Positions 296 to 13,837 of a DNA stretch of 14,664 nucleotides are shown piece after piece. Source of the stretch: Desulfotalea psychrophila LSv54 (lineage in GTDB: Bacteria; Desulfobacterota; Desulfobulbia; Desulfobulbales; Desulfocapsaceae); assembly GCF_000025945.1 (NCBI RefSeq), contig NC_006140.1, positions 1-14,664 on the forward strand. The letters are read 5' to 3'. A program made the position numbers and the translations under genes. Numbering within the stretch: position 1 is the first letter of the stretch; each line of letters opens with the position of its first letter. Below the pieces are notes generated by a model, which was not told the DNA's origin, searched no databases, and saw nothing but the letters and a program-made list of their open reading frames with translations.

Positions 296-1435
296 TTACT
301 TTTTAATGAGAAGTTTATTAAATATTTCTTTATGTATACTTTCATTGTTGATGACCCTTGCCATTTCATCAGCAGCCCCAACAGAGAAAAATACTTTTGT
401 TGTTTTTGAGTAATTATCAAGGCTCTCGACCCAAATATAATGTTCAAATTTATTATCCACAGTACCCTCGGGCGGATTATTAACTTTAAACTTTGGGTCG
501 TCAACCCACCCTAAATAACGCATTGCAATTTTTAGATGTTGGTTTCCGAAGTTGTATATCACCTTGTCTTTAACAGCTTTGTTAAGACTTGTCATAGTAA
601 TATGTTCTTTAAAATTACTTAGCTCACCAACAATTTTATATATAGGTTTACCTTCATTGGTAGTTATTTTTCCTATTTCCCCTGCTGATATAGCATTCAA
701 GATAATATTGAAAACGCCATTTTGATTCTTATCTATCTCAACATCACTATTAGATAAAATATTATCTCTACTATTGAAGCCATAAACTCTATTTTGTACT
801 GGATTAAGTATCAACACTTCCCGCGGGTTAATATCCACCATTTCAGGTAAAAGCTTTGACCATATTTCCATAAATTCTTTGCTTCGTTCATTTGCTTTAA
901 TCTGAAGAAATCGATTAAAGTCAGCTGTTGACTGATTAGCGTGCTCATTTTTACTAGATGCACGATAATAAATAGCTCCCTTTTGTAACTTATACTCAGG
1001 GACATCAGCCTGCGGTATCAATATCTGATTATTTTTTTCAATAATCAGATAGTAAAACAACCTTGTACTAATCTTGAACTTTTGAAGATCAATGGACACC
1101 CCGACCTTTGCTATTTTTTCAAATTTTTGAGTGACATCATTAAGATCAATTTGTTCCAATATTTCTAACGTTTCACTTGGCAAGCCTACATCATCATTTT
1201 TACCTGTTGTCTTATCTTCCTTGATTCCTAATAATATCATTCCTCCATCTGCGTTAGAAAATGAAATAATATCTTTAGCAAAATTCAACAAAAAGTTTTC
1301 CAAAGACGATTTCGACTTAGTAAGTTTCAAATCAACCTTATAGTCAATATGCGAGTTTTCTTTCGGAAAATTACCATTATTTTTTAAGTCTGAAATAATA
1401 TCTGTTACGTTAACTTTTAATTCTTGAAGGTTCAT
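296..1435 (-). CDS. AlbA_2 / Schlafen-like putative nucleic-acid-binding domain protein (379 aa)
   Basis: Uninterrupted ORF with ATG start and TAA stop. The N-terminal segment ENSHIDYKVDLK...FAKDIISFSNADGGMILLGIKED matches my recollection of the AlbA_2 (PF04326) signature E..lEfK...aFaNt.GG.l.iGv.d. The C-terminal two thirds has no motif I recognise. Confidence 0.55.
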   Translation of the reverse strand: MNLQELKVNVTDIISDLKNNGNFPKENSHIDYKVDLKLTKSKSSLENFLLNFAKDIISFSNADGGMILLGIKEDKTTGKNDDVGLPSETLEILEQIDLNDVTQKFEKIAKVGVSIDLQKFKISTRLFYYLIIEKNNQILIPQADVPEYKLQKGAIYYRASSKNEHANQSTADFNRFLQIKANERSKEFMEIWSKLLPEMVDINPREVLILNPVQNRVYGFNSRDNILSNSDVEIDKNQNGVFNIILNAISAGEIGKITTNEGKPIYKIVGELSNFKEHITMTSLNKAVKDKVIYNFGNQHLKIAMRYLGWVDDPKFKVNNPPEGTVDNKFEHYIWVESLDNYSKTTKVFFSVGAADEMARVINNESIHKEIFNKLLIKK

Positions 1436-3722: not shown

Positions 3723-5060
3723 TTAAAATTTTATACCTTTTGTTTTTAAAAGCCATTTTTCAAAAGTATTAACACTTGAATCAAGTATATTTTTCCTATA
3801 ATATAATTTTGCTTGAACCTCAAAAATAACGGTTTTATAATATTCATCTATTGTTTTTAATGATGATATTTTTCTTAAAATAGTCGACTTAATTCCATCA
3901 TGACAATTATCAAGAAACTGTTTTGTAAATTTTTCTATGTTTTTATCTAAATATTTTTCAAATTGCGAATTACAATATAAACTATATTCTTCATCTAATA
4001 TTTTTTCTTTATCTTTTCTTTTTTGGTAAGCTTTTATTTCTTCTATAGATTTTTTGTCTTTTTCATCTTTCTCTTTTTCTCTAGTTTCTTTTTTCTTTTT
4101 ATAAGGGCTTTTTTTTGCCCAGTCACCAGTTATAGCTGATGAAATAAAGGCAGCTATCGTATCAACTTTTCCTTTTTCATCTTCACTTAAAGTATATTCT
4201 ATATTTCTCACTACACGGGATTCATCTAATATACCAGACTTATCCATAGATAATATTTTTTTAGGAGAAATGCCATAACCTATTAAATCTCTATAATGTT
4301 CAGGGCTTACAGAATTAAACTTCATTTTTAAAATAGCTTGTGCATCTTTATCAATAATAATGAGATCTAAAAAATGTGTTTTCCTTCCTAATTTCCTTGT
4401 TTTATAACTAAAATACATTTCTGTTTTAAGTGGTATTTCTACCATTGCTTTTTCAATAACATACTTAATAAAATCAGTAGGTTGCTTATATTTACTAGTT
4501 AAACCCATTAAAACCTTGAGTTCATCTATAACTAATGTTTTCTTTCCTAAGAAAGAATACAGCCGAATAATCTCGTAAAATCTCCATACATTACCACCTA
4601 CCACCTCATTTCTCATCCCTATTGGATAAGCGATATATGACTTTAAACTTGCACTTAATAGATACTTTTTCATGATAGGCGAGAAACGGACATCAACAGT
4701 ACCTTTTCCCTTGTTGTAATCCGCTTGGCAAAGAAAAGATGATTGGCTAACAATAATAGCCCCCTCTTCTGAAGTAGTCGTCAACTGGAAACCCTTAGTA
4801 ATCAAGCCTGCGGTTATTTCTTGAATAGCTTTATATGCCCCGTCTGGTTTTATTTTATAGTATTCAGCAAGTTGAGAAATTGAAAAACGAAGACTATCAA
4901 AATCTTCAGCATTTCCATCTGATACAGCAATCATTAAATCAATAAATTTTCCTTCCCTTTCAGTAAAACAATAATTTTTGCTTAGCATTTTCGTGCTTTT
5001 TCTTACAAGGGTATGCGGATTATATACTTCCGGTAAATGAACCATTTTCAAAAAAACCAT
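3723..5060 (-). CDS. Plasmid replication initiator (RepB / Rep_3-like, iteron-binding type), 445 aa
   Basis: Large ORF reading away from an array of 21-bp iterons that begins about 85 bp upstream of its start. The N-terminal half looks like winged-helix initiators (LSKNYCFTEREGKFIDLM...ISQLAEYY). It has a K/E-rich linker and a TAA stop. The call rests mostly on the iteron context. The true start could be one of the internal Met codons. Confidence 0.65.
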   Translation of the reverse strand: MVFLKMVHLPEVYNPHTLVRKSTKMLSKNYCFTEREGKFIDLMIAVSDGNAEDFDSLRFSISQLAEYYKIKPDGAYKAIQEITAGLITKGFQLTTTSEEGAIIVSQSSFLCQADYNKGKGTVDVRFSPIMKKYLLSASLKSYIAYPIGMRNEVVGGNVWRFYEIIRLYSFLGKKTLVIDELKVLMGLTSKYKQPTDFIKYVIEKAMVEIPLKTEMYFSYKTRKLGRKTHFLDLIIIDKDAQAILKMKFNSVSPEHYRDLIGYGISPKKILSMDKSGILDESRVVRNIEYTLSEDEKGKVDTIAAFISSAITGDWAKKSPYKKKKETREKEKDEKDKKSIEEIKAYQKRKDKEKILDEEYSLYCNSQFEKYLDKNIEKFTKQFLDNCHDGIKSTILRKISSLKTIDEYYKTVIFEVQAKLYYRKNILDSSVNTFEKWLLKTKGIKF

Positions 5061-5145: not shown

Positions 5146-5504
5146 AGCAATAAAAACTCGGAGTTAATTTAGGACAAGCAAAAACTCGGAGTTAAAAACA
5201 TCATAATGAAATAAAAAAGGTACTAATACAGAGACATACTTCCAAAAATAATCTGAAAAAACAAGGACAAGCAAAAACTCGGAGTTAATAAAGTATTATT
5301 AAGCTTAAACTGTCGTATTTAAATAATAAATTAAAAATAATTCTAAACATCAAAAAACAACAAGCAAAAACTCGGAGTTAACAAGCAAAAACTCGGAGTT
5401 AGTTTTTTATTTTTTGCTCTTTTTTATAAAAAAAAGCGTCATAATAGGCAGTTAGCCCACAAACAAGCAAAACCTCGGAGTTAACAAGCAAAAACTCGGA
5501 GTTA
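5146..5504. repeat. oriV-type iteron array: seven 21-bp direct repeats ACAAGCAAAAACTCGGAGTTA
   Basis: Copies at 5146..5166 (degenerate 5' third), 5174..5194, 5267..5287, 5360..5380, 5381..5401, 5463..5483 (one mismatch) and 5484..5504. All have the same orientation, and two pairs are exactly tandem. An A/T-rich tract (5402..5440, GTTTTTTATTTTTTGCTCTTTTTTATAAAAAAAAG) lies between the tandem pairs and is a plausible unwinding element. Confidence 0.85.
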
Positions 5505-5682
5505 GTACTCCTAAGTCCTCTAATTTAAAGTATTTTTGAAGTCCCTATATATGTTATGGTTTTATATAAGTAACCAACAACAAGAAAAACAAAAAATTAA
5601 CAACTTTTCAAAAAAAAAGAACAACACCAAATTTCTGAAAAAACAAACTCTTTCAAAAACGCAACTGGAAAAGATGGTGAAT

Positions 5683-6843: not shown

Positions 6844-7737
6844 TTATTTCCTTTTTTGTAAAAAATCATTGTAATCATTGAATTTAGCATAGATATAGCT
6901 TTTATCATCAACAACTAAATTTTTTAAGTTGTCCTTAAAAAATTTAGTTGTTTTTTTTCCTGTTTTATCATTATCAAGCAAAGTATAAATGCTTTTTATA
7001 TTAGTTTCTAGGCATATACAAAAAATTTTTTCAATAGTCTTTTTAGCCATAGATACAGAACACATAATAATAACAGAGTTAACATATTCTAATACACTTT
7101 CTTTTTTATCAGTTAAAAAACTTAAAAAATCGATAAATCACTCAAAGATCAATATATTTTTACTTTTTTTATTAAAAGTAAATGTTGCTATATCTTTACA
7201 AATTAAATTTGATTTAAAATTTAAATTTCTTATTTCGTATCATTTTTTATCGTTTTCAAAAGCAATTGCTTTAAATTTTCAATATTGGTTTGTATAAGTA
7301 ATTTCTTTGCAGAATTTTTTAACAATAGAAATATTAAGTTTCCTTGATTCTAAATAGTCAATTATTGATTTTGTTTTTATCGGTCATATAGCTTCTATGC
7401 TATAATTTTTTTTTACTTTTGATTCTACTTTTTTTGTTGTTGGAACAGGGGGTAAAATAGTTTGTTGACCTCAGATATTTTCTAAAAAGTTTAAGGCTTG
7501 CGATACAGAGCATTTTTGAAATCCGATAATAAAATCTAGTGTGTTTCCTCCTTCCCCAGTACCGTGGTCAAACCATGCATTTTTTAAAGGGCTATAATCA
7601 AAAGAAGGAGTCTTTTCTTCTCTAAAAGGACTAAAATATTTTATTGAATTTTGACTATTTAAATATTTTTGTGGTGCATAACCTAATTTATTTAAAACTA
7701 AATCAAGTTTTATGTTTTTTGCTTGTTCACATTTCAT
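6844..7737 (-). CDS. Toprim / degenerate CHC2-finger primase-like protein typical of mobilizable elements. It is 297 codons only if five in-frame TGA codons are read as sense (best fit Gly, table 25)
   Basis: I walked the frame codon by codon. The standard-code fragments 7471..7737 and 6844..7065 are in the same frame. The 405 nt between them contains TGA at 7471..7473, 7384..7386, 7279..7281, 7240..7242 and 7138..7140 (plus-strand coordinates) but no TAA or TAG. The N-terminus SPFREEKTPSF...WFDHGTGEGGNTLDF and the C-terminus LLDNDKTGKK...YNDFL match my recollection of Bacteroides-type Toprim proteins. Three TGA codons fall at the family glycines in NGK.YFAIGF, GGYE.RN and FEGF.D(F/Y)LSFL. 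Confidence 0.8.
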
Positions 7738-7906: not shown

Positions 7907-8449
7907 ATGCGATTCAATACCTTGATGGTATGTTTTTTTAGTTCCGTGTGCTTTTTTTTGGTTTTACCGTTCAATGCTTCAGCTGAAGATTTGTTGAATA
8001 TAAGGCAATATACAAACAAAAATAAACCTGAAACATTAGGAGAGTTTACAATAGAAAAAGAAAAAGAGACTAACTTAGCATATATTACGTCAGCCACTAA
8101 TAAGGCTTCTTTTTTACTTTTTGAAAAAGAAATTAAAAGACCATTTGAAATAAAATTTCAAAAATATAGTTTAGAAAATTTTGCAATAAATATTATTTCA
8201 GAAAAAAAAGAAATAAAAATTTCTTATAATCAATGGCTATATGTAAATAAAAAAAGAGTGGAAGATTGTTCCTTAAGAATAGCTAGATGGAATACTTTGA
8301 GAATAAAGGTTAAGGAAGATAAACTTGTATTTTATATTAATGGAGAAAAATCTTACACTTTGCCAAGTGTTGATAATAATATAGTTGAAGAAATTTTATT
8401 TAAATTTGGTGACACCACTAAAATTTCAAAACTGGAAATCAAAAAATAA
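7907..8449 (+). CDS. Secreted protein of unknown function (180 aa) with an N-terminal signal peptide
   Basis: Canonical AGGAG (7894..7898) sits 8 nt before the ATG. The signal-peptide-like N-terminus is MRFNTLMVCFFSSVCFFLVLPFNASA/EDLL, and the stop is TAA. The C-terminal half (ARWNTLRIKVKEDKLVFYINGEK) is faintly reminiscent of ConA/LamG-like jelly rolls, which is a weak impression only. Confidence 0.6.
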   Translation: MRFNTLMVCFFSSVCFFLVLPFNASAEDLLNIRQYTNKNKPETLGEFTIEKEKETNLAYITSATNKASFLLFEKEIKRPFEIKFQKYSLENFAINIISEKKEIKISYNQWLYVNKKRVEDCSLRIARWNTLRIKVKEDKLVFYINGEKSYTLPSVDNNIVEEILFKFGDTTKISKLEIKK

Positions 8450-8519: not shown

Positions 8520-8633
8520 CTTCAAAGTCAAGAACCGATTTTTTTAATTCTAAAGAATTAAAAAAATAACGGATTCTGGACTTTTTAAAAATTAAATTTT
8601 CAATAACTTACTTTATTATTTAAATTTTTTAAA

Positions 8634-8945
8634 ATGGACATTTGTAAAATAGTTGAAGAGAAATTAAAGGATTATCCACTATATTCTCAAGATTGAAATA
8701 AAAACCCTTTAGTTTGTGCTAAATTGTTTTGATTAGGTACAGGAGCAACCTGGTATATTACAGAATATTCTCCTAAAGAAAAAATAGCTTTCTGATATAC
8801 TGAATGATTAACGGAAAATGGTGATGAATGGGGATATATTAGTTTGGCAGAACTTGCGAGTATAATGTTTTGACCTATCCCAAGAATAGAGGTTGATTTG
8901 TTTTTCAAAGTAAAAGGTTTTTCAGAAATTGTAAAAAGGGAATAA
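8634..8945 (+). CDS. DUF2958-family protein (103 aa) containing five in-frame TGA codons (best fit Gly, table 25)
   Basis: ATG at 8634 and TAA at 8943. In-frame TGA at 8694, 8730, 8793, 8805 and 8871. With TGA = Gly the product is MDICKIVEEKLKDYPLYSQDGNKNPLVCAKLFGLGTGATWYITEYSPKEKIAFGYTEGLTENGDEWGYISLAELASIMFGPIPRIEVDLFFKVKGFSEIVKRE. This reproduces my recollection of the DUF2958 (PF11171) pattern LYSQ.G, KFF.P...WTWY..E.D, FFG.V.G...E.GY.SL.EL, RGP...IERD..F. The standard-code track reports only an antisense ORF here. Confidence 0.8.
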
Positions 8946-8957
8946 GCCCCTTTTTTT
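8933..8957 (+). terminator. Weak terminator-like hairpin overlapping the DUF2958 stop codon
   Basis: AAAAAGGG (8933..8940), loop AATAAG, then CCCC followed by a T7 run (8947..8957). Confidence 0.35.
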
Positions 8958-9055
8958 CAGTTCATTTTTACGGGCACGGTTAATTTTGGAGCTATGCTGA
9001 AAGAGTGCTATTATAGTAGAAGCAAGATTGAAAGTTTTACGAAAACATTCATCTT

Positions 9056-9080
9056 GTAAGGGGGGATTCCCCCCCCTTAC
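9056..9080 (+). promoter_or_regulatory. Candidate oriT inverted repeat
   Basis: GTAAGGGGGG (9056..9065) pairs with CCCCCCTTAC (9071..9080) across the loop ATTCC, and is followed by CCCCCTTTTAAAAACC. It is the only strongly G/C-rich hairpin in the window and sits about 30 nt upstream of the mobC-relaxase operon, the usual oriT position. The nick site was not identified. Confidence 0.45.
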
Positions 9081-9112
9081 CCCCCTTTTAAAAACCATAA
9101 AAAATAAGCCTA

Positions 9113-9481
9113 ATGTCTAGAAAAAAATATTTACAAGAATATCAAAAAGAGTATCGAAAAGAAAAAAAACAAGTAACTTTAACACTTACTTTAACAGAGT
9201 ATAATTATTTTAAAACAATAGCAGATAAAGAAGATATAAAAGTTACAAGTTTAATTAAAGCTATGGCTTTATCTCAACTTGGTAAAACTTTTTATTTCCC
9301 TAAGGAAATCCTAAAAAGGATAGATGAATTTATTTTTATAATTAGAAATATTGCTAATAATCTAAATCAAATAGCAAGGCATTCAAATATTATAAAAAAT
9401 GTTATTAACGAAAACAGTGTACTCTCATTAATAAAAAATCTTGAGACAGAAGTTAAAAGATTCATAAAAAGTAAAATATGA
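9113..9481 (+). CDS. mobC: MobC-family relaxosome accessory protein (ribbon-helix-helix type), 122 aa
   Basis: The motifs KKQVTLTLTLTEYNYFKTIADKEDIKVTSLIKAMAL and IRNIANNLNQIARHSN match my recollection of the PF05713 signature NLNQ(I/L)AR..N. Its stop overlaps the relaxase start in ATGA (9478..9481). If TGA is sense the ORF ends at TAA 9485..9487. Confidence 0.8.
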   Translation: MSRKKYLQEYQKEYRKEKKQVTLTLTLTEYNYFKTIADKEDIKVTSLIKAMALSQLGKTFYFPKEILKRIDEFIFIIRNIANNLNQIARHSNIIKNVINENSVLSLIKNLETEVKRFIKSKI

Positions 9482-10398
9482 TTATAAAATCCTTATCAAG
9501 AAAAAAACCGACTTTTGGGCAGTTGTCTGATTATATTTATAATGAGGCAGATAAAGAATATATTTATACATATAATATGTACTCTGATAAAAATAAATTA
9601 AAAGATATAAAAAAAGAATTTAAAGAAAATTATAGTTTTTTAAAAAAACAAAAAAATTCTAATGCCTTGTACCATGAGATGTTATCTATAAAAAAATCTA
9701 ATATAGAGATTGATTTACAAAAAAAAGCCTTATATGACATTGTTAACGAGTATATAAAAGTAAGGTCGCCAAATTGTTTAGTCTATGGTGGTCTGCATGA
9801 GGCAGAAAATAACCTACATTATCATGTGATTATTAGTTCAAATCAAATTGAAAAAGAAAAGAATAATTATTTATCAAAAAAAGAATTTTCTGAAATTAAA
9901 AAAGGGTTAGAAATGTATGTTCTAAACAAATACCCAGAGTTAAAACAAGAAATAATTATAAATAAAGAGAAAAAGAAAAACACTATATCGGACAAAGAAT
10001 ATCAATTAGGAAAAAGAACAGGTAGGCAAACTAAAAGCGAAAATTTAAAAGAAAGATTAAATAATATTTTCAATAATGCTAAAACAAAAAAAGAATTTTT
10101 TGACGCTCTCTATTGGGAGAAAATAGAAATTCAACTAAAAGGTAAAACAATAAAATTTATTGATGAAAAAACGGGGCTGACTCGTCGTCTAAAAAGACTA
10201 GGGCTAGAAGAAGAATTTTATAAATTAAGTGATAGTTTAGAACAGCAAGAAGCAAAGTACCAGGAGGGGAAGCAAACCCACGAGCAACAGCAAGCTCACG
10301 AGCAACAGCAAGCTCACGAGCAACAAGAACAAACTAAAAATACTGAGTCAGCTGAAGAACTGAAGAAAAACAAAGAAATAAAAGAAAAGAATTTCTAA
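9478..10398 (+). CDS. Relaxase / mobilization nuclease (MobA/VirD2-type, PF03432-like), 306 aa
   Basis: N-terminus MIIKSLSRKKPTFGQLSDYIYNE, with candidate catalytic Tyr residues. A histidine motif NNLHYHVIISSN is present. The start is translationally coupled to mobC and the stop is TAA. The C-terminal tail is Q/E-rich and carries an 18-bp tandem repeat. Confidence 0.8.
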   Translation: MIIKSLSRKKPTFGQLSDYIYNEADKEYIYTYNMYSDKNKLKDIKKEFKENYSFLKKQKNSNALYHEMLSIKKSNIEIDLQKKALYDIVNEYIKVRSPNCLVYGGLHEAENNLHYHVIISSNQIEKEKNNYLSKKEFSEIKKGLEMYVLNKYPELKQEIIINKEKKKNTISDKEYQLGKRTGRQTKSENLKERLNNIFNNAKTKKEFFDALYWEKIEIQLKGKTIKFIDEKTGLTRRLKRLGLEEEFYKLSDSLEQQEAKYQEGKQTHEQQQAHEQQQAHEQQEQTKNTESAEELKKNKEIKEKNF

Positions 10399-10999: not shown

Positions 11000-12466
11000 A
11001 TGTCAAAATTAATAGCGGATACACTAAAAACATTTTTTAATGTTGGGAAATTTATAGCTAAAGGCTATGTATTAAAAAAAGAAGAGGGCGCAAGGTTTGC
11101 AAAAAATAGTGAACAAAATGAAATAATAAATAGCTCAAATAGAGGGTTATTAATTAATGGGATTAATAAAAGATTATCAGAAAAAGAGTCATTTAAGCAT
11201 ATTGCAATTATTGCAAAATCGGGAATAGGTAAAACAACAGGATATATTTATCCTAATATTTTTGATAAAGCAGATTCTAATTGCTCAATGCTTATAACTG
11301 ACCCAAGTAGTGAAATTTATGAAACTACATCACAACATTTAAAAAATAGAGGTTTTAAAATTGTTAGGTTAAACCCTAGTAATATTAATCAGTCGTCAAG
11401 ATTTAATCCATTTCATGGATTAGGTGCGGAAGATATTATTGAAATTGAACAAATTTGTACATCAATAATTAAGTCTAAATATGGAAATGATAAAGAGCAA
11501 GTGTGGAATGATGGGGCGATTTCTTTGCTTGAACTGTTTGCTAAATGTTTAGCTTATACACAACCTGAATACTTAAATCTGCCTAATCTTAATTATTTAA
11601 TTCAAATGTTCGGAGAAAGTGGGGAAAATTTAGATGATTGGGTTATTGAACACTCTATAAACCCCTATGACGAACAGGACAGGTCTATTCTTGATTTTTG
11701 GATAGGTCTTAGGTCTAATAATGCTAATATGTTAACTAGTTACGCAACTATCGTTAAAACAGCGTTAAAACAGTTAAATAATCGGAAGATTCAAAGACTA
11801 TTATCAAATAATGATATTGATTTAGAAGATTTTAGAAAACAAAAAACAGCAATTTTTTTAAGTTTTCCAGATAATCAGCAAGACTATTATCAGTTTTTAG
11901 TTGATATTTTTTATGCTAGGTTTTTTTCTGTTATGATGAGCAAAAAACCCACGCCGAGAGATTTAAACGTGTATTGTTTTTTAGATGAGTTTGGTAATGC
12001 TTACGTGGATAATTTCCCTACAATAGTAACTACTATTAGAAAATACAGAGTTTCTCTGTCTGTTGTACTTCAAGGAATAAGCCAACTTAATAAAAAATAT
12101 GGAGATATGGCGAAAAGCGGAATTTCAAGTTTTATAATTTATGCAGGTGGTGACTATGAAACTTTGAATGAACAAAGCCAGTTAATAGGGAAAAAAAGAA
12201 TAATACAAAGAAATAAATTTGAAGACCATGTGACAAGTTATCAAGATATTGATTTATTGCCTCCTGCAGAATTAAGAACAATGAAAGATAATCAAGCTTT
12301 ATTTTTGTCTAGTAATAAATACCCTTTTATATTTGAATTTCAACCCTTTTATAAAAACAGAAAATTTTTAACTCTTTCTAAAAAAGGGGAGTATATACCA
12401 TTAGAAAAACAAAAAGATATGTGTTGGAATCAATTGTTTTTGAAAAAAAATAATAAAAATAAATGA
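11000..12466 (+). CDS. Type IV coupling protein (TraG/VirD4 family ATPase) without N-terminal TM helices, 488 aa
   Basis: Walker A AKSGIGKTT (GIGKTT at 11222..11239). Walker B-like YCFLDEFGN. RFNPF and VLQGISQL motifs are typical of T4CPs. It has 24 Gly (hand count) and no internal TGA. It ends on TGA (12464..12466); the next in-frame stop is TAA at 12500..12502. Confidence 0.85.
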   Translation: MSKLIADTLKTFFNVGKFIAKGYVLKKEEGARFAKNSEQNEIINSSNRGLLINGINKRLSEKESFKHIAIIAKSGIGKTTGYIYPNIFDKADSNCSMLITDPSSEIYETTSQHLKNRGFKIVRLNPSNINQSSRFNPFHGLGAEDIIEIEQICTSIIKSKYGNDKEQVWNDGAISLLELFAKCLAYTQPEYLNLPNLNYLIQMFGESGENLDDWVIEHSINPYDEQDRSILDFWIGLRSNNANMLTSYATIVKTALKQLNNRKIQRLLSNNDIDLEDFRKQKTAIFLSFPDNQQDYYQFLVDIFYARFFSVMMSKKPTPRDLNVYCFLDEFGNAYVDNFPTIVTTIRKYRVSLSVVLQGISQLNKKYGDMAKSGISSFIIYAGGDYETLNEQSQLIGKKRIIQRNKFEDHVTSYQDIDLLPPAELRTMKDNQALFLSSNKYPFIFEFQPFYKNRKFLTLSKKGEYIPLEKQKDMCWNQLFLKKNNKNK

Positions 12467-12503: not shown

Positions 12504-13127
12504 ATGGCTTTAAATGTTTTTGATTCTGTTTTGTTGTCCTTTGTATATGCTTTAATAACTTGGGTCTGTTTTTATTCTATTAAAAAATTACACTGGTTAT
12601 TAAAAATAGTTCCTATAATATTTCTAACAAGTGTAATTGGTCATTCTCCAAGTTTTGGCGCTAGGATAATGATAATATCTTTTTTGATTATGGTAGCAAG
12701 AGAACTATATATAAAAAATAATTGTTATTTTTTATATGAAATATTTAGTAACGCAACTGATTTTTTAAAAAATAAAAAAAATAAGAGAAAAGAAGAAGAG
12801 AATTTTAATTCTGAAAGAAAATCAAACAATGAAAACATTAAAGAAGAGTTAAGCCAAGCAAAAGAAAGATTGAAAAAAGTTAGGGAAGAAGCAGACCACC
12901 AAAAAGCAAACCACCAAAAAGCAGCCAGTAAACCCCCAAGAGAAAGATTAAATATTTTTTCAGAACCATTAACTCATGCAGAGTTAAAAAAAGCTTATCG
13001 TCTAGCTTCATTAAAATGCCACCCTGACCATGTGGAACATCTCTCGGAAACCTTAAAAGAAACGGCTAATGAGGAATTTAAAAAACTTAATGAAGCTTAT
13101 AATAAACTTAAAAAAGTAGCCCAGTAA
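12504..13127 (+). CDS. Membrane-anchored protein with a C-terminal J domain (DnaJ-like), 207 aa
   Basis: AGGA sits 7 nt before the ATG. About three hydrophobic N-terminal segments are followed by a charged coiled-coil-like linker. The J-domain signature is LTHAELKKAYRLASLKCHPDHV...EEFKKLNEAYNKLKK, with HPD at 13020..13028. The stop is TAA. Confidence 0.75.
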   Translation: MALNVFDSVLLSFVYALITWVCFYSIKKLHWLLKIVPIIFLTSVIGHSPSFGARIMIISFLIMVARELYIKNNCYFLYEIFSNATDFLKNKKNKRKEEENFNSERKSNNENIKEELSQAKERLKKVREEADHQKANHQKAASKPPRERLNIFSEPLTHAELKKAYRLASLKCHPDHVEHLSETLKETANEEFKKLNEAYNKLKKVAQ

Positions 13128-13207
13128 GTCTGTGACTTAAAAAACTTTTAAGTCAAAAAGCTATTAAGTCAAAAAATTTTTGACTTTTTAACTCAATGCC
13201 CTATAAT
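13125..13207 (+). promoter_or_regulatory. par operon promoter with overlapping palindromic operator / centromere-like sites
   Basis: TTGACT (13180..13185), 16 nt, then TATAAT (13202..13207). The palindromes are TAAGTC-TGT-GACTTA (13125..13139) and AAGTCAAAAA-A-TTTTTGACTT (13166..13186, overlapping the -35). An extra TTAAGTCA half-site lies at 13148..13155. Confidence 0.6.
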
Positions 13208-13240
13208 ATATTTTATAATTTAACATATAAAAGGTTTATT

Positions 13241-13837
13241 ATGAGAACTTTATTTTGGACGTTTAAAGGTGGTCAAGGCAAGACAACCCTTGCTGTTTCC
13301 TATGCTCTTTATTCAGACAGTTATTTTATAACTAACGATACAGAGAGTGGAACTTTAGATATTTACGGGGGCTTGTTTAGTAGTGATAAAATGGAGAGCT
13401 TAGGAAGAGGGGAAGACCTGGTTTTAAGAGAGAGAAATGAAGTTTATGACTTGGGGGGGTGGTCTGATAGTTTGGCTGAAAAAGTAGCTAGTAACTGTGA
13501 GATTTGTGTTATCCCTGTTTCTTTTAATAGTATTAGTGAAATAACACCCTCCATTAAGGCTATAAATTCATTGTCTATCTATAACAAAAGTATTGTTTTA
13601 GTGATAAATAATACAGACAAAAAAGAAGCTGTAGAAGCTAAAAAATACTTTGAAAAAGAATACCCTAAAATAAAAGTATTTATAGTAAATAAATCTAAAT
13701 ATATACATAGACTAGCAAATGAAAATAAAACGGTTTTTGAAATAGCAGAACAAAACGGGCTTACTAGATATAATACTAAGCAACTAAGAAACCAACTTAC
13801 AACCTTATTTGATTATATAAAAAACTATGACAACTAA
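13241..13837 (+). CDS. parA: ParA/Soj-family partition ATPase (198 aa from the ATG at 13241)
   Basis: The deviant Walker A FKGGQGKTT lies right at the N-terminus when translation starts at 13241. AAGG sits 6 nt upstream. The ORF-track start at 13196 lies upstream of the predicted -10 box and would add an atypical 15-aa leader. The stop is TAA. Confidence 0.8.
   Translation: MRTLFWTFKGGQGKTTLAVSYALYSDSYFITNDTESGTLDIYGGLFSSDKMESLGRGEDLVLRERNEVYDLGGWSDSLAEKVASNCEICVIPVSFNSISEITPSIKAINSLSIYNKSIVLVINNTDKKEAVEAKKYFEKEYPKIKVFIVNKSKYIHRLANENKTVFEIAEQNGLTRYNTKQLRNQLTTLFDYIKNYDN

What the first reader, a model, noticed from the sequence alone, without database searches (positions are those of the whole stretch)
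8634..8945. Hidden DUF2958-family gene with five sense TGA codons, missed by the standard-code ORF track
The ORF track shows only a 73-aa minus-strand ORF (8687..8908) here. On the plus strand, ATG 8634 to TAA 8943 is open apart from TGA at 8694, 8730, 8793, 8805 and 8871. Reading TGA as Gly gives LYSQDG, KLFGLGTGATWYITEY, IAFGYTEGLTENGDEWGYISLAEL and FGPIPRIEVDLFF. These reproduce my recollection of the DUF2958 consensus blocks LYSQ.G, WTWY..E.D, FFG.V.G...E.GY.SL.EL and RGP...IERD. Reading TGA as Trp would put 7 Trp in 103 residues, and both family-typical Trp positions (TWY, EWGY) already use TGG. This is independent evidence, from a second unrelated family, for the same reassignment.
Basis: partly seen in the sequence, partly recalled or inferred. 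Interest (0 to 1): 0.88.

Follow-up and report, generated by a model that had tools for sequence, protein, structure and literature searches.

The report
Glycine-UGA gene on Desulfotalea plasmid
A real but never-annotated plasmid gene (DUF2958 family) is written in the rare genetic code where UGA means glycine, yet it sits on the small plasmid of Desulfotalea psychrophila, a cultured bacterium that uses the standard code, which points to plasmids moving across a genetic-code boundary.

Summary
ATG 8634 to TAA 8945 (+) is open except for five TGA codons. It encodes a DUF2958 protein (PF11171: 30.7 bits with Gly, 28.1 with X, 24.8 with Trp). Against 149 family representatives, Gly is the best of 20 meanings for TGA (+6.1 bits; Trp -18.4). 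With four relatives that also carry in-frame TGA, Gly scores +26.2 and Trp -58.7.

The window is the complete 14,664-bp small plasmid of Desulfotalea psychrophila LSv54, a standard-code isolate. TGA is not sense plasmid-wide. The primase and DUF2958 genes hold 10 TGA against 13 GGN. The other 16 genes hold 0 against 138. Five of those end at TGA, four with a TAA/TAG one or two codons later.

The plasmid family (Rep3, primase, DUF2958, MobC, relaxase, coupling protein) includes members that clearly use UGA=Gly and TGA-free members in Colwellia and Pseudoalteromonas. Across the family DUF2958 is TGA-rich, while relaxase and coupling protein avoid TGA.

Most likely the gene was inherited from a lineage hosted by UGA=Gly bacteria, and in D. 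psychrophila it stops at codon 21. The protein's function is unknown.

The parts
8634..8945 (+). DUF2958-family gene, 103 codons plus TAA. It reads through only if TGA is decoded, as Gly.
   Evidence: The gene lies between CAG37856 and CAG37857, which are consecutive accessions, so nothing was annotated here.
8694..8696 (+). TGA codon 21 (LYSQD-x)
   Evidence: Gly is the plurality in this column (66 of 149; Trp 1). Relative L001 has TGA at the same column.
8730..8732 (+). TGA codon 33 (KLF-x-LG)
   Evidence: Variable S/T/N/D column with Gly 1 of 147 and Trp 0. Uninformative about the meaning of TGA.
8793..8795 (+). TGA codon 54 (IAF-x-Y)
   Evidence: Gly in 145 of 146 representatives. L001 and L005 have TGA at the same column.
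8805..8807 (+). TGA codon 58 (TE-x-L)
   Evidence: Gly in 110 of 146. L005 and L017 have TGA at the same column.
8871..8873 (+). TGA codon 80 (MF-x-PIPRIE)
   Evidence: Variable column with Gly 11 of 142. L002 and L005 have TGA at the same position, suggesting an inherited TGA.
6844..7737 (-). Primase-like gene (degenerate CHC2 zinc-ribbon region plus Toprim), 297 codons. It has 5 in-frame TGA at 7471-7473, 7384-7386, 7279-7281, 7240-7242 and 7138-7140.
   Evidence: Pfam Toprim_2 and Zn_ribbon_DnaG hits. Residue 166 column has Gly 116 of 120 and residue 200 (the Toprim 'EG' motif) has Gly 117 of 120. Gly is the best meaning (+4.4 bits) and Trp scores -22.6.
7907..8449 (+). 180-aa ORF between primase and DUF2958 (CAG37856). 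It has a signal-peptide-like N-terminus, no TGA and only 3 Gly codons.
8687..8908 (-). 73-aa antisense ORF, judged spurious.
   Evidence: No Pfam hit. It is not in the protein collection. It lies wholly inside the DUF2958 gene.
9056..9087 (.). G/C-run inverted repeat (GTAAGGGGGG-attcc-CCCCCCTTAC, then a further CCCCCCTT) in the AT-rich spacer between DUF2958 and MobC. Candidate oriT hairpin (inferred).
9113..9481 (+). MobC/NikA-like accessory gene. It ends at a TGA that overlaps the relaxase ATG (ATGA), and TAA follows one codon later.
9478..10398 (+). Relaxase-like gene, with no TGA.
   Evidence: 37-48% identity to relaxases of L005-L012, which carry PF03432. 0 TGA against 10 GGN.
11000..12466 (+). 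Type IV coupling protein (CAG37860). It has no internal TGA, ends at TGA, and the next TAA is 11 codons later.
3723..5060 (-). Rep3-type replication initiator, with no TGA.
5152..5527 (.). About eight copies of a 21-nt iteron (ACAAGCAAAAACTCGGAGTTA) upstream of rep. Probable oriV.

Best explanation
Positions 8634-8945 hold a genuine DUF2958-family gene whose reading frame was shaped in cells that read UGA as glycine. That is genetic code 25, known only from Absconditabacteria and Gracilibacteria.

The gene belongs to a conserved module of a Rep3, mobilisable plasmid family: primase, a small ORF, DUF2958, a candidate oriT, MobC, relaxase and coupling protein. The family has members in UGA=Gly hosts and in standard-code marine bacteria.

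In a UGA=Gly cell a tRNA-Gly(UCA) would insert glycine at the five UGA codons and give a 103-aa protein. In the deposited host, Desulfotalea psychrophila LSv54, release factor 2 should stop translation at codon 21. The neighbouring primase should stop at codon 89. Both genes are therefore silent passengers there.

The replication, partition and mobilisation genes contain no internal TGA, so they work under either code.

Shown: gene identity, Gly as the meaning of TGA, the two classes of genes, plasmid identity, and the family pattern.
Inferred: silence in D. psychrophila, the identity of the UGA=Gly hosts, and any role of DUF2958. My guess for that role is an establishment function in the recipient, because of its position beside the primase and oriT. 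No test supports this guess.
For: Gene identity and the meaning of TGA:
- PF11171 scores 30.7 (Gly), 28.1 (X) and 24.8 (Trp) bits.
- Against 149 representatives of 4,804 family clusters, Gly is best at +6.1 bits, Asn next at +1.2, and Trp scores -18.4. Over 17 TGA sites in five genes, Gly scores +26.2, the next best -16.1, and Trp -58.7.
- L002 has TGA at the invariant Gly of EWGYIS. L001 and L005 share TGA columns with the window.
- Both conserved Trp residues use TGG.

Identity of the window:
- The coupling protein is 100% identical to CAG37860/WP_011190473 of D. psychrophila, on a contig of 14,664 bp.
- PMC2702500 Table 1 lists the small plasmid as 14,664 bp, 28% G+C, 17 CDS, 72% coding and no tRNA. 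The chromosome is 85% coding.

Two gene classes in the window:
- TGA:GGN is 10:13 in primase plus DUF2958 against 0:138 in the other 16 genes (Fisher p=4.7e-10).
- Five genes end in TGA, with TAA/TAG following after 1, 1, 1, 2 and 11 codons. Genes ending in TAA/TAG show gaps of 0-82 codons (median 7). The binomial probability is 0.0025.

Family pattern:
- The closest relative in every module is L005 (DUF2958 62.5%, MobC 60.5%, coupling protein 64.6%).
- In L005 all 22 genes end in TAA/TAG, and two cargo genes have TGA:GGN of 18:6 and 14:4.
- Relaxases of L006-L008 stay conserved as protein beyond their TGA.
- Over 14 loci with TGA-bearing DUF2958, TGA makes up 42 of 92 Gly codons in DUF2958. 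It makes up 8 of 354 in the coupling protein and 0 of 165 in the relaxase N-terminal region.
- TGA-free DUF2958 genes that stop at TGA occur in Colwellia loci, one of them from an isolate (L015).
- No tRNA gene is present in the window or in 19 relatives.
Against: - Nothing here measures translation. That D. psychrophila terminates at these UGA codons follows from its standard-code annotation, not from a test. I could not examine its tRNA set or its RF2.
- Two of the five TGA columns are not Gly columns.
- One distant subclade member (L075) has TGG where its relatives have TGA at codon 2.
- The ORFs show no decay apart from the TGA codons. That requires either a recent arrival or continuing selection somewhere.
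- The hosts of the metagenomic relatives are inferred only from codon use.
- DUF2958 has no known function. The AlphaFold model of a homologue (pLDDT 76.5) has no PDB neighbour with E<0.4.
Confidence: 0.75

Rival explanations
1. The plasmid is not really carried by D. psychrophila. It came from a UGA=Gly bacterium (or its DNA) present in the sequenced culture, and the gene is translated normally in that true host.
For: - G+C is 28% against 46% for the chromosome.
- The closest relative, L005, clearly uses UGA=Gly.
- Two genes need that code.
Against: - The strain is a published pure-culture genome, and no other foreign replicon was reported.
- 16 of 18 genes avoid internal TGA and five end at TGA. 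This is unlike L001, L002 or the L005 cargo genes, where TGA equals or exceeds GGN.
- A second isolate, gammaproteobacterium IMCC1989, carries a related contig with a TGA at a Gly column of DUF2958.
Confidence: 0.07
2. The two genes are dead relics. A recombination event brought a UGA=Gly-coded primase-DUF2958 segment into a standard-code plasmid, nothing selects for them any more, and the family pattern reflects repeated accidents of this kind.
For: - The genes are untranslatable in the deposited host.
- Rep3 and the host primase could suffice for replication.
- Primase is TGA-free in some relatives and TGA-rich in others.
Against: - Both ORFs are free of TAA, TAG and frameshifts in DNA of 24-30% G+C, where the median distance to the next TAA/TAG is 13 codons.
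- All invariant family residues are kept.
- The same synteny, with TGA-bearing DUF2958, recurs in at least 14 diverged loci.
- TGA positions are shared with L005, L001 and L002.
Confidence: 0.15
3. D. psychrophila itself decodes these UGA codons, through a suppressor tRNA, its selenocysteine machinery or high read-through, so the protein is made in place.
For: From my own knowledge, the organism has selenoproteins, and tRNA-Sec has a UCA anticodon.
Against: - Ten UGA codons in two genes would each need a SECIS element, and Rfam finds no family in the window.
- The aligned columns are Gly, not Cys or Sec.
- The plasmids carry no tRNA.
- Five other genes on the plasmid use TGA as their terminator.
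Confidence: 0.02
4. TGA means tryptophan here (code 4, as in Mollicutes).
For: - AT-rich DNA.
- Gene callers translated relatives P0001-P0003 with Trp at these sites.
- L075 has TGG where its relatives have TGA at codon 2.
Against: - Trp scores -18.4 bits for the window and -58.7 bits over 17 sites. Trp occurs in at most 1 of about 146 sequences in every window TGA column.
- Pfam scores 5.9 bits lower with Trp.
- In the primase, Trp scores -22.6 bits.
Confidence: 0.01

Closest known systems
DUF2958 (Pfam PF11171) proteins of plasmids, integrative elements and some phages
   Same: - Domain match above the gathering score.
- Same length, about 100 aa.
- Same invariant residues (ITEY, DEWGYIS.EL).
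- Located beside mobilisation genes.
   Different: - Half of its Gly codons (5 of 10) are TGA, so it is invisible to standard-code annotation.
- The family has no assigned function and no solved structure.
Genetic code 25 (UGA=Gly) of Absconditabacteria/SR1 and Gracilibacteria (Campbell 2013 and Rinke 2013, as cited in PMC13092985)
   Same: In-frame TGA at conserved Gly columns, with TGG kept for Trp.
   Different: - Only 2 of 18 genes on the replicon use it.
- Five genes end in TGA.
- The deposited host is a standard-code Desulfobacterota isolate.
- No tRNA-Gly(UCA) is on the plasmid.
[quoted passage not shown]
   Same: The plasmid backbone lacks in-frame TGA and has a second, different stop codon close behind gene ends. 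The paper describes exactly these traits.
   Different: - This is a plasmid, not a phage.
- It is not fully dual-compatible, because two genes can be read only under code 25.
- One member is in a cultured standard-code host.
Stop-codon-recoded phages in which recoding is concentrated in late or lytic genes (bioRxiv 10.1101/2021.08.26.457843)
   Same: The reassigned codon is confined to a subset of genes on one element, so expression of those genes depends on the decoding state of the cell.
   Different: - From my own knowledge, those phages usually bring their own suppressor tRNAs and use TAG=Gln or TGA=Trp.
- Here no tRNA is encoded and the meaning is Gly.
Leading-region establishment genes of conjugative plasmids (plasmid primases Sog/TraC, ArdA, PsiB, SSB). 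This comparison is from general knowledge.
   Same: A primase and a small protein lie next to the candidate oriT, on the side away from the relaxase operon.
   Different: The nick site and the direction of transfer are unknown here. No anti-restriction or SSB similarity was found.

Membership tests
DUF2958 (PF11171) | Whole-protein HMM score above Pfam's gathering score (21 bits) | tested here: met
   30.7 bits with Gly, 28.1 with X and 24.8 with Trp. A family profile built from standard-code homologues gives 88 bits.
DUF2958 (PF11171) | Conserved core residues (W-Y-I-T-E-Y and D-E-W-G-Y-I-S..E-L) | tested here: met
   I42, T43, E44, E65, W66, Y68, S70, E73 and L74 are invariant in A1. W40, Y41 and G67 are nearly invariant. 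All are present in the window.
Code 25 usage (UGA=Gly) | In-frame TGA falls at conserved Gly columns of homologues, and Gly is the best-fitting residue | tested here: met
   Columns are 145/146 and 110/146 Gly in DUF2958, and 116/120 and 117/120 Gly in the primase.
Code 25 usage (UGA=Gly) | TGA is used as sense throughout the replicon and never as a terminator | tested here: not met
   0 TGA against 138 GGN in 16 genes. Five genes end at TGA, one of them in an ATGA stop/start overlap.
Code 25 usage (UGA=Gly) | tRNA-Gly(UCA) present and release factor 2 absent in the cell | not testable with these tools
   No tRNA in the window. The D. psychrophila chromosome could not be fetched.
Code 25 usage (UGA=Gly) | Host belongs to Absconditabacteria or Gracilibacteria | tested here: not met
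   The record names Desulfotalea psychrophila.
Dual code-11/25-compatible mobile elements (as in PMC10746230) | No in-frame TGA in any gene | tested here: not met
   Met for 16 genes. Primase and DUF2958 have 5 each.
Dual code-11/25-compatible mobile elements (as in PMC10746230) | Several different stop codons close together at gene ends | tested here: met
   4 of 5 TGA-ending genes have a TAA/TAG within 2 codons, against 1 of 13 controls. Binomial P=0.0025.
Code 4 (UGA=Trp) | TGA at conserved Trp columns | tested here: not met
   Trp is in at most 1 sequence in each window TGA column, and the conserved Trp residues use TGG.
Selenocysteine recoding | SECIS element downstream of UGA, with Cys or Sec in homologues | tested here: not met
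   No Rfam family in the window. The columns are Gly.

The most novel reading that the evidence does not exclude
This is a natural plasmid family that shuttles between standard-code marine bacteria and UGA=Gly bacteria (Absconditabacteria/Gracilibacteria).

Selection keeps the replication, partition and donor-side transfer genes free of UGA, with back-up stops, so they work under both codes. The genes next to oriT that act on arrival in a recipient (DUF2958, and often the primase) are written with UGA=Gly. They are therefore 'code-gated': silent in standard-code cells and made only after entry into a UGA=Gly cell.

The D. psychrophila plasmid would then be a culturable member of this family.
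Probability: 0.25. Interest if true: 0.92.

Novelty: new variant of a known kind. Interest (0 to 1): 0.74.

Why it matters
Stop-codon reassignment is widely thought to wall a lineage off from horizontally transferred genes. Here a cultured, standard-code sulfate reducer carries a plasmid on which two intact genes can be read only with UGA=Gly. The plasmid's closest relative sits in a UGA=Gly host, and other relatives sit in Colwellia and Pseudoalteromonas.

That is direct sequence evidence that a plasmid lineage has crossed this code boundary. The backbone shows the same TGA avoidance and tandem stops described so far only for phages.

It also has practical value:
- It gives an available strain and a 14.7-kb replicon for testing how a code difference filters plasmid genes.
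- It is a possible starting vector for Absconditabacteria and Gracilibacteria, which currently cannot be manipulated genetically.
- It shows that standard-code annotation of isolate plasmids and binned contigs (for example the 'Methylococcaceae' contig L008) can hide or truncate genes.

Tried and rejected
- A megablast of the whole window against PLSDB found nothing, and accession NC_006140 is not held.
- The contig look-up for the 100%-identical coupling protein returned no record.
I modelled the homologue P0005 instead (pLDDT 76.5). Foldseek against the PDB gave nothing below E=0.49.
- The PDB sequence search gave only spurious TPR and calcineurin hits.
- PHROGs and NCBIfam have no model for this protein.
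- Large proteins that contain a DUF2958 domain carry no informative partner domain, apart from ChaB in one case.
- The literature holds only two passing mentions of DUF2958. Nothing links Desulfotalea plasmids to UGA=Gly.
- There are no tRNA genes in the window or in 19 related loci, and no Rfam family.
- The promoter and terminator scan around the gene was at or below shuffle expectation.
- Rejected readings: TGA=Trp, selenocysteine, chance ORF, and the antisense 73-aa ORF as the real gene.
- I first took the T4CP 'TGA stop' in L006-L008 as a sign of standard-code plasmids. I dropped that once their relaxases proved conserved beyond TGA.

Full report
**Observation.** The sequence is as described. 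ATG 8634 opens a 104-codon frame that ends at TAA 8943-8945. It is interrupted only by TGA at 8694, 8730, 8793, 8805 and 8871. The only standard-code ORF of 60 aa or more here is the 73-aa antisense ORF 8687..8908. That ORF has no Pfam match and is absent from the protein collection.

**What the ORF encodes, and what TGA stands for.**
- Pfam PF11171 (DUF2958) is hit under every reading: 30.7 bits with Gly, 28.1 with X and 24.8 with Trp, against a cut-off of 21.
- I built a profile from nine homologues that carry no suspect residues (A2). I searched it against 1.84 billion cluster representatives and found 4,804 family members. I then aligned the best 149 with the window.
- The five TGA columns in the window read as follows:

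| Residue | Gly in column | Note |
|---|---|---|
| 21 | 66 of 149 | plurality |
| 33 | 1 of 147 | S/T/N/D column |
| 54 | 145 of 146 | |
| 58 | 110 of 146 | |
| 80 | 11 of 142 | variable column |

- Trp is never in more than 1 sequence in any of these columns.
- Treating each of the 20 amino acids in turn as the meaning of TGA, Gly is best at +6.1 bits. Asn is next at +1.2, and Trp scores -18.4.
- The nearest database relatives had been translated with Trp at odd places. Their DNA shows in-frame TGA there.
- L002 has TGA at the invariant Gly of EWGYIS. L001 has TGA at the same QD-x and AF-x-Y columns as the window. L003 and L001 share another Gly/Ser column.
- Over 17 TGA sites in five genes, Gly scores +26.2 bits, the next residue -16.1 and Trp -58.7.
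- The two conserved Trp positions use TGG.
- So the gene identity and the Gly reading are solid. The recalled 'RGP' block and the residue-33 position are not Gly columns.

**What the window is.**
- The coupling protein at 11000-12466 is 100% identical to CAG37860/WP_011190473 of Desulfotalea psychrophila, on a contig of 14,664 bp.
- PMC2702500 Table 1 lists the small plasmid of strain LSv54 as 14,664 bp, 28% G+C, 17 CDS, 72% coding and no tRNA. The chromosome is 46% G+C and 85% coding. The window is therefore that whole plasmid.
- The gene map:

| Coordinates | Strand | Feature |
|---|---|---|
| 296-1435 | - | Schlafen/AlbA_2 protein |
| 3723-5060 | - | Rep3 initiator |
| 5152-5527 | . | about eight 21-nt iterons upstream of rep |
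| 6844-7737 | - | CHC2-like/Toprim primase |
| 7907-8449 | + | 180-aa ORF |
| 8634-8945 | + | DUF2958 |
| 9056-9087 | . | G/C-run inverted repeat |
| 9113-9481 | + | MobC |
| 9478-10398 | + | relaxase-like gene |
| 11000-12466 | + | coupling protein |
| 12504-13127 | + | DnaJ-domain protein |
| 13196-13837 | + | ParA-like protein |

- The ORFs at 7907-8449 and 9113-9481 carry consecutive accessions (CAG37856 and CAG37857). So nothing was annotated where DUF2958 lies.

**TGA is not sense plasmid-wide.**
- Primase plus DUF2958 contain 10 TGA against 13 GGN. The other 16 genes contain 0 TGA against 138 GGN (Fisher p=4.7e-10).
- The primase TGA codons also fit Gly. Residue 166 lies in a column with Gly in 116 of 120 homologues. 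Residue 200, the Toprim EG motif, lies in a column with 117 of 120. Gly scores +4.4 bits and Trp -22.6.
- Five of the other genes end at TGA. One of them, MobC, does so in an ATGA overlap with the relaxase start.
- In four of those five, a TAA or TAG follows after one or two codons (gaps of 1, 1, 1, 2 and 11 codons). The 13 genes that end in TAA/TAG show gaps of 0-82 codons to the next one.
- The background chance of a gap of 2 codons or fewer is 0.155, which gives a binomial P of 0.0025.
- Liu et al. [quoted passage not shown]

**The plasmid family.**
- I used the coupling protein as an anchor to fetch related contigs.
- The synteny Rep3, (H-NS), primase, DUF2958, MobC, relaxase, coupling protein, DnaJ recurs.
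- L005 is the closest relative in every module (DUF2958 62.5%, MobC 60.5%, coupling protein 64.6%, relaxase 48%, ParA 42%, primase 40%).
- L005 clearly lives under UGA=Gly. All 22 of its genes end in TAA/TAG, and two cargo genes have TGA:GGN of 18:6 and 14:4. Yet its coupling protein is 0:28 and its primase 0:14.
- In L006-L008 the gene callers stopped the relaxase at TGA, but the next 50 codons are conserved as protein (DYSKGKxKLVSL...KVVEILEQYEDEK). TGA is therefore sense there too. L008 is filed in a 'Methylococcaceae' genome bin.
- DUF2958 carries TGA inside the domain in 14 non-redundant loci. The counts over those loci are:

| Gene | TGA as share of Gly codons |
|---|---|
| DUF2958 | 42 of 92 |
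| Coupling protein | 8 of 354 (at the extreme ends where I inspected them) |
| Relaxase N-terminal region | 0 of 165 |

- The primase is TGA-rich in the window, L007, L028, L070 and L075. It is TGA-free in L005, L006, L008, L030, L032 and L036.
- On the other side of the family, chromosomal copies in Colwellia and Pseudoalteromonas have no sense TGA. This includes the isolates Colwellia sp. I2R04, Pseudoalteromonas sp. ASV78 and P. rubra S2471. The DUF2958 genes found in two Colwellia loci (L014, and L015 from isolate I2R04) stop at TGA.
- A second isolate, gammaproteobacterium IMCC1989, has a 17-kb contig. It has a TGA at the AY-x-SGTW Gly column of DUF2958, and a relaxase C-terminal region lying beyond a TGA.
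- No tRNA gene is present in the window or in 19 of the related loci.

**Interpretation.**
- The window shares TGA positions with L005 (residues 54, 58, 80), L001 (21, 54) and L002 (80). These TGA codons were therefore probably inherited from an ancestor that lived where UGA is glycine.
- According to PMC13092985, that decoding is known only from the class uniting Absconditabacteria and Gracilibacteria.
- In D. psychrophila, DUF2958 should terminate at codon 21 and the primase at codon 89. Rep3, ParA, MobC, relaxase and the coupling protein are unaffected. This explains how the plasmid can persist.
- I cannot tell whether the two genes are silent passengers on their way to decay, or are kept by selection because the plasmid lineage regularly passes through UGA=Gly hosts.
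- Three things argue for continued selection somewhere. The ORFs are intact in DNA where a TAA/TAG is expected about every 13 codons. All invariant residues are retained. The contrast between a TGA-free backbone and a TGA-rich DUF2958 holds across diverged family members.
- The more speculative reading is that genes next to oriT are 'code-gated' for recipients that read UGA as Gly. It fits the geography of the plasmid, but it rests on an unmapped oriT and an unknown protein function.

**Function of the protein.** Nothing tested here assigns one.
- There is no solved homologue by sequence.
- An AlphaFold model of homologue P0005 (pLDDT 76.5; two short helices, a four-stranded sheet and a C-terminal helix) has no PDB neighbour below E=0.49.
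- There is no PHROG or NCBIfam model.
- The literature holds only passing mentions.
- The conserved position between a plasmid primase and the mobilisation operon suggests a role in establishment of incoming DNA. This is inference only.

**Limits.**
- I could not read the D. psychrophila chromosome, so its tRNA set and RF2 are assumed from its standard-code annotation.
- Hosts of the metagenomic relatives are inferred from codon use.
- The back-up-stop statistic rests on five genes.
- One subclade member (L075) has TGG where its relatives have TGA at codon 2 of DUF2958. I read this as a Gly/Trp substitution at a variable N-terminal site.

**Verdict.** The finding is real, and its core reading is right: a hidden DUF2958 gene in which TGA corresponds to Gly. 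The assumption that the replicon as a whole uses the reassigned code is wrong. The interesting result is the context: a UGA=Gly-coded gene pair on an otherwise code-neutral plasmid of a cultured standard-code bacterium. That plasmid belongs to a family spanning both codes.

Noticed in passing
window 6844-7737 (-): Primase-like gene with five in-frame TGA. Two fall at columns with Gly in 97% or more of homologues, including the Toprim EG motif. It is split into 88-aa and 73-aa fragments under the standard code and is unannotated in the deposit.
   Followed up: yes
window gene ends at 2285, 9481, 10988, 12466 and 14088: Five genes end at TGA, and four of them have a TAA/TAG one or two codons downstream (P=0.0025). 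These look like back-up stops, the pattern described for phages compatible with both codes.
   Followed up: yes
window 5152-5527: About eight copies of a 21-nt repeat (ACAAGCAAAAACTCGGAGTTA) upstream of the Rep3 gene. These are probably the iterons of the replication origin.
   Followed up: partly
window 9056-9087: Perfect 10-bp G/C-run inverted repeat with a third C-run, standing alone in AT-rich DNA just upstream of MobC. Candidate oriT hairpin. The nick site is not identified.
   Followed up: partly
L008 (NCBI GCA_044426695.1, contig JAUGSP010000367.1, 'Methylococcaceae' MAG): The contig carries sense TGA: the relaxase is conserved beyond its TGA, and DUF2958 holds 1-2 TGA. It is probably mis-binned, or at least annotated with the wrong code. 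Its DUF2958 gene is not called.
   Followed up: partly
L009 (Gamma proteobacterium IMCC1989 ctg_49) 4552-4923 and 8566-9984: This is a second cultured standard-code bacterium with a related contig. Its DUF2958 has TGA at a Gly column, and the last ~40 codons of its relaxase lie beyond a TGA.
   Followed up: partly
L006-L012 relaxase genes: A conserved C-terminal relaxase region of about 50 aa lies behind one or two TGA codons (...SKGKxKLVSLTIKxKVVEIL...). The window's relaxase (306 aa) and the Colwellia-type relaxases lack this region.
   Followed up: partly
L075 3173-3529 versus L006, L007, L008, L028, L070: Codon 2 of DUF2958 is TGG (Trp) in L075 but TGA in five relatives. This is the only site seen where TGA lines up with Trp.
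   Followed up: no
L005 11317-14911: Cargo genes have TGA:GGN of 18:6, 14:4 and 4:0 and no Pfam hits, on the same contig as a coupling protein with 0:28. This is an extreme within-plasmid contrast in codon use.
   Followed up: partly
window 296-1435 (-) and 12504-13127 (+): The first is a Schlafen/AlbA_2-domain protein, possibly a defence or regulatory gene. The second is a membrane protein with a C-terminal DnaJ domain. A DnaJ-domain gene lies just downstream of the coupling protein gene in several family members.
   Followed up: no
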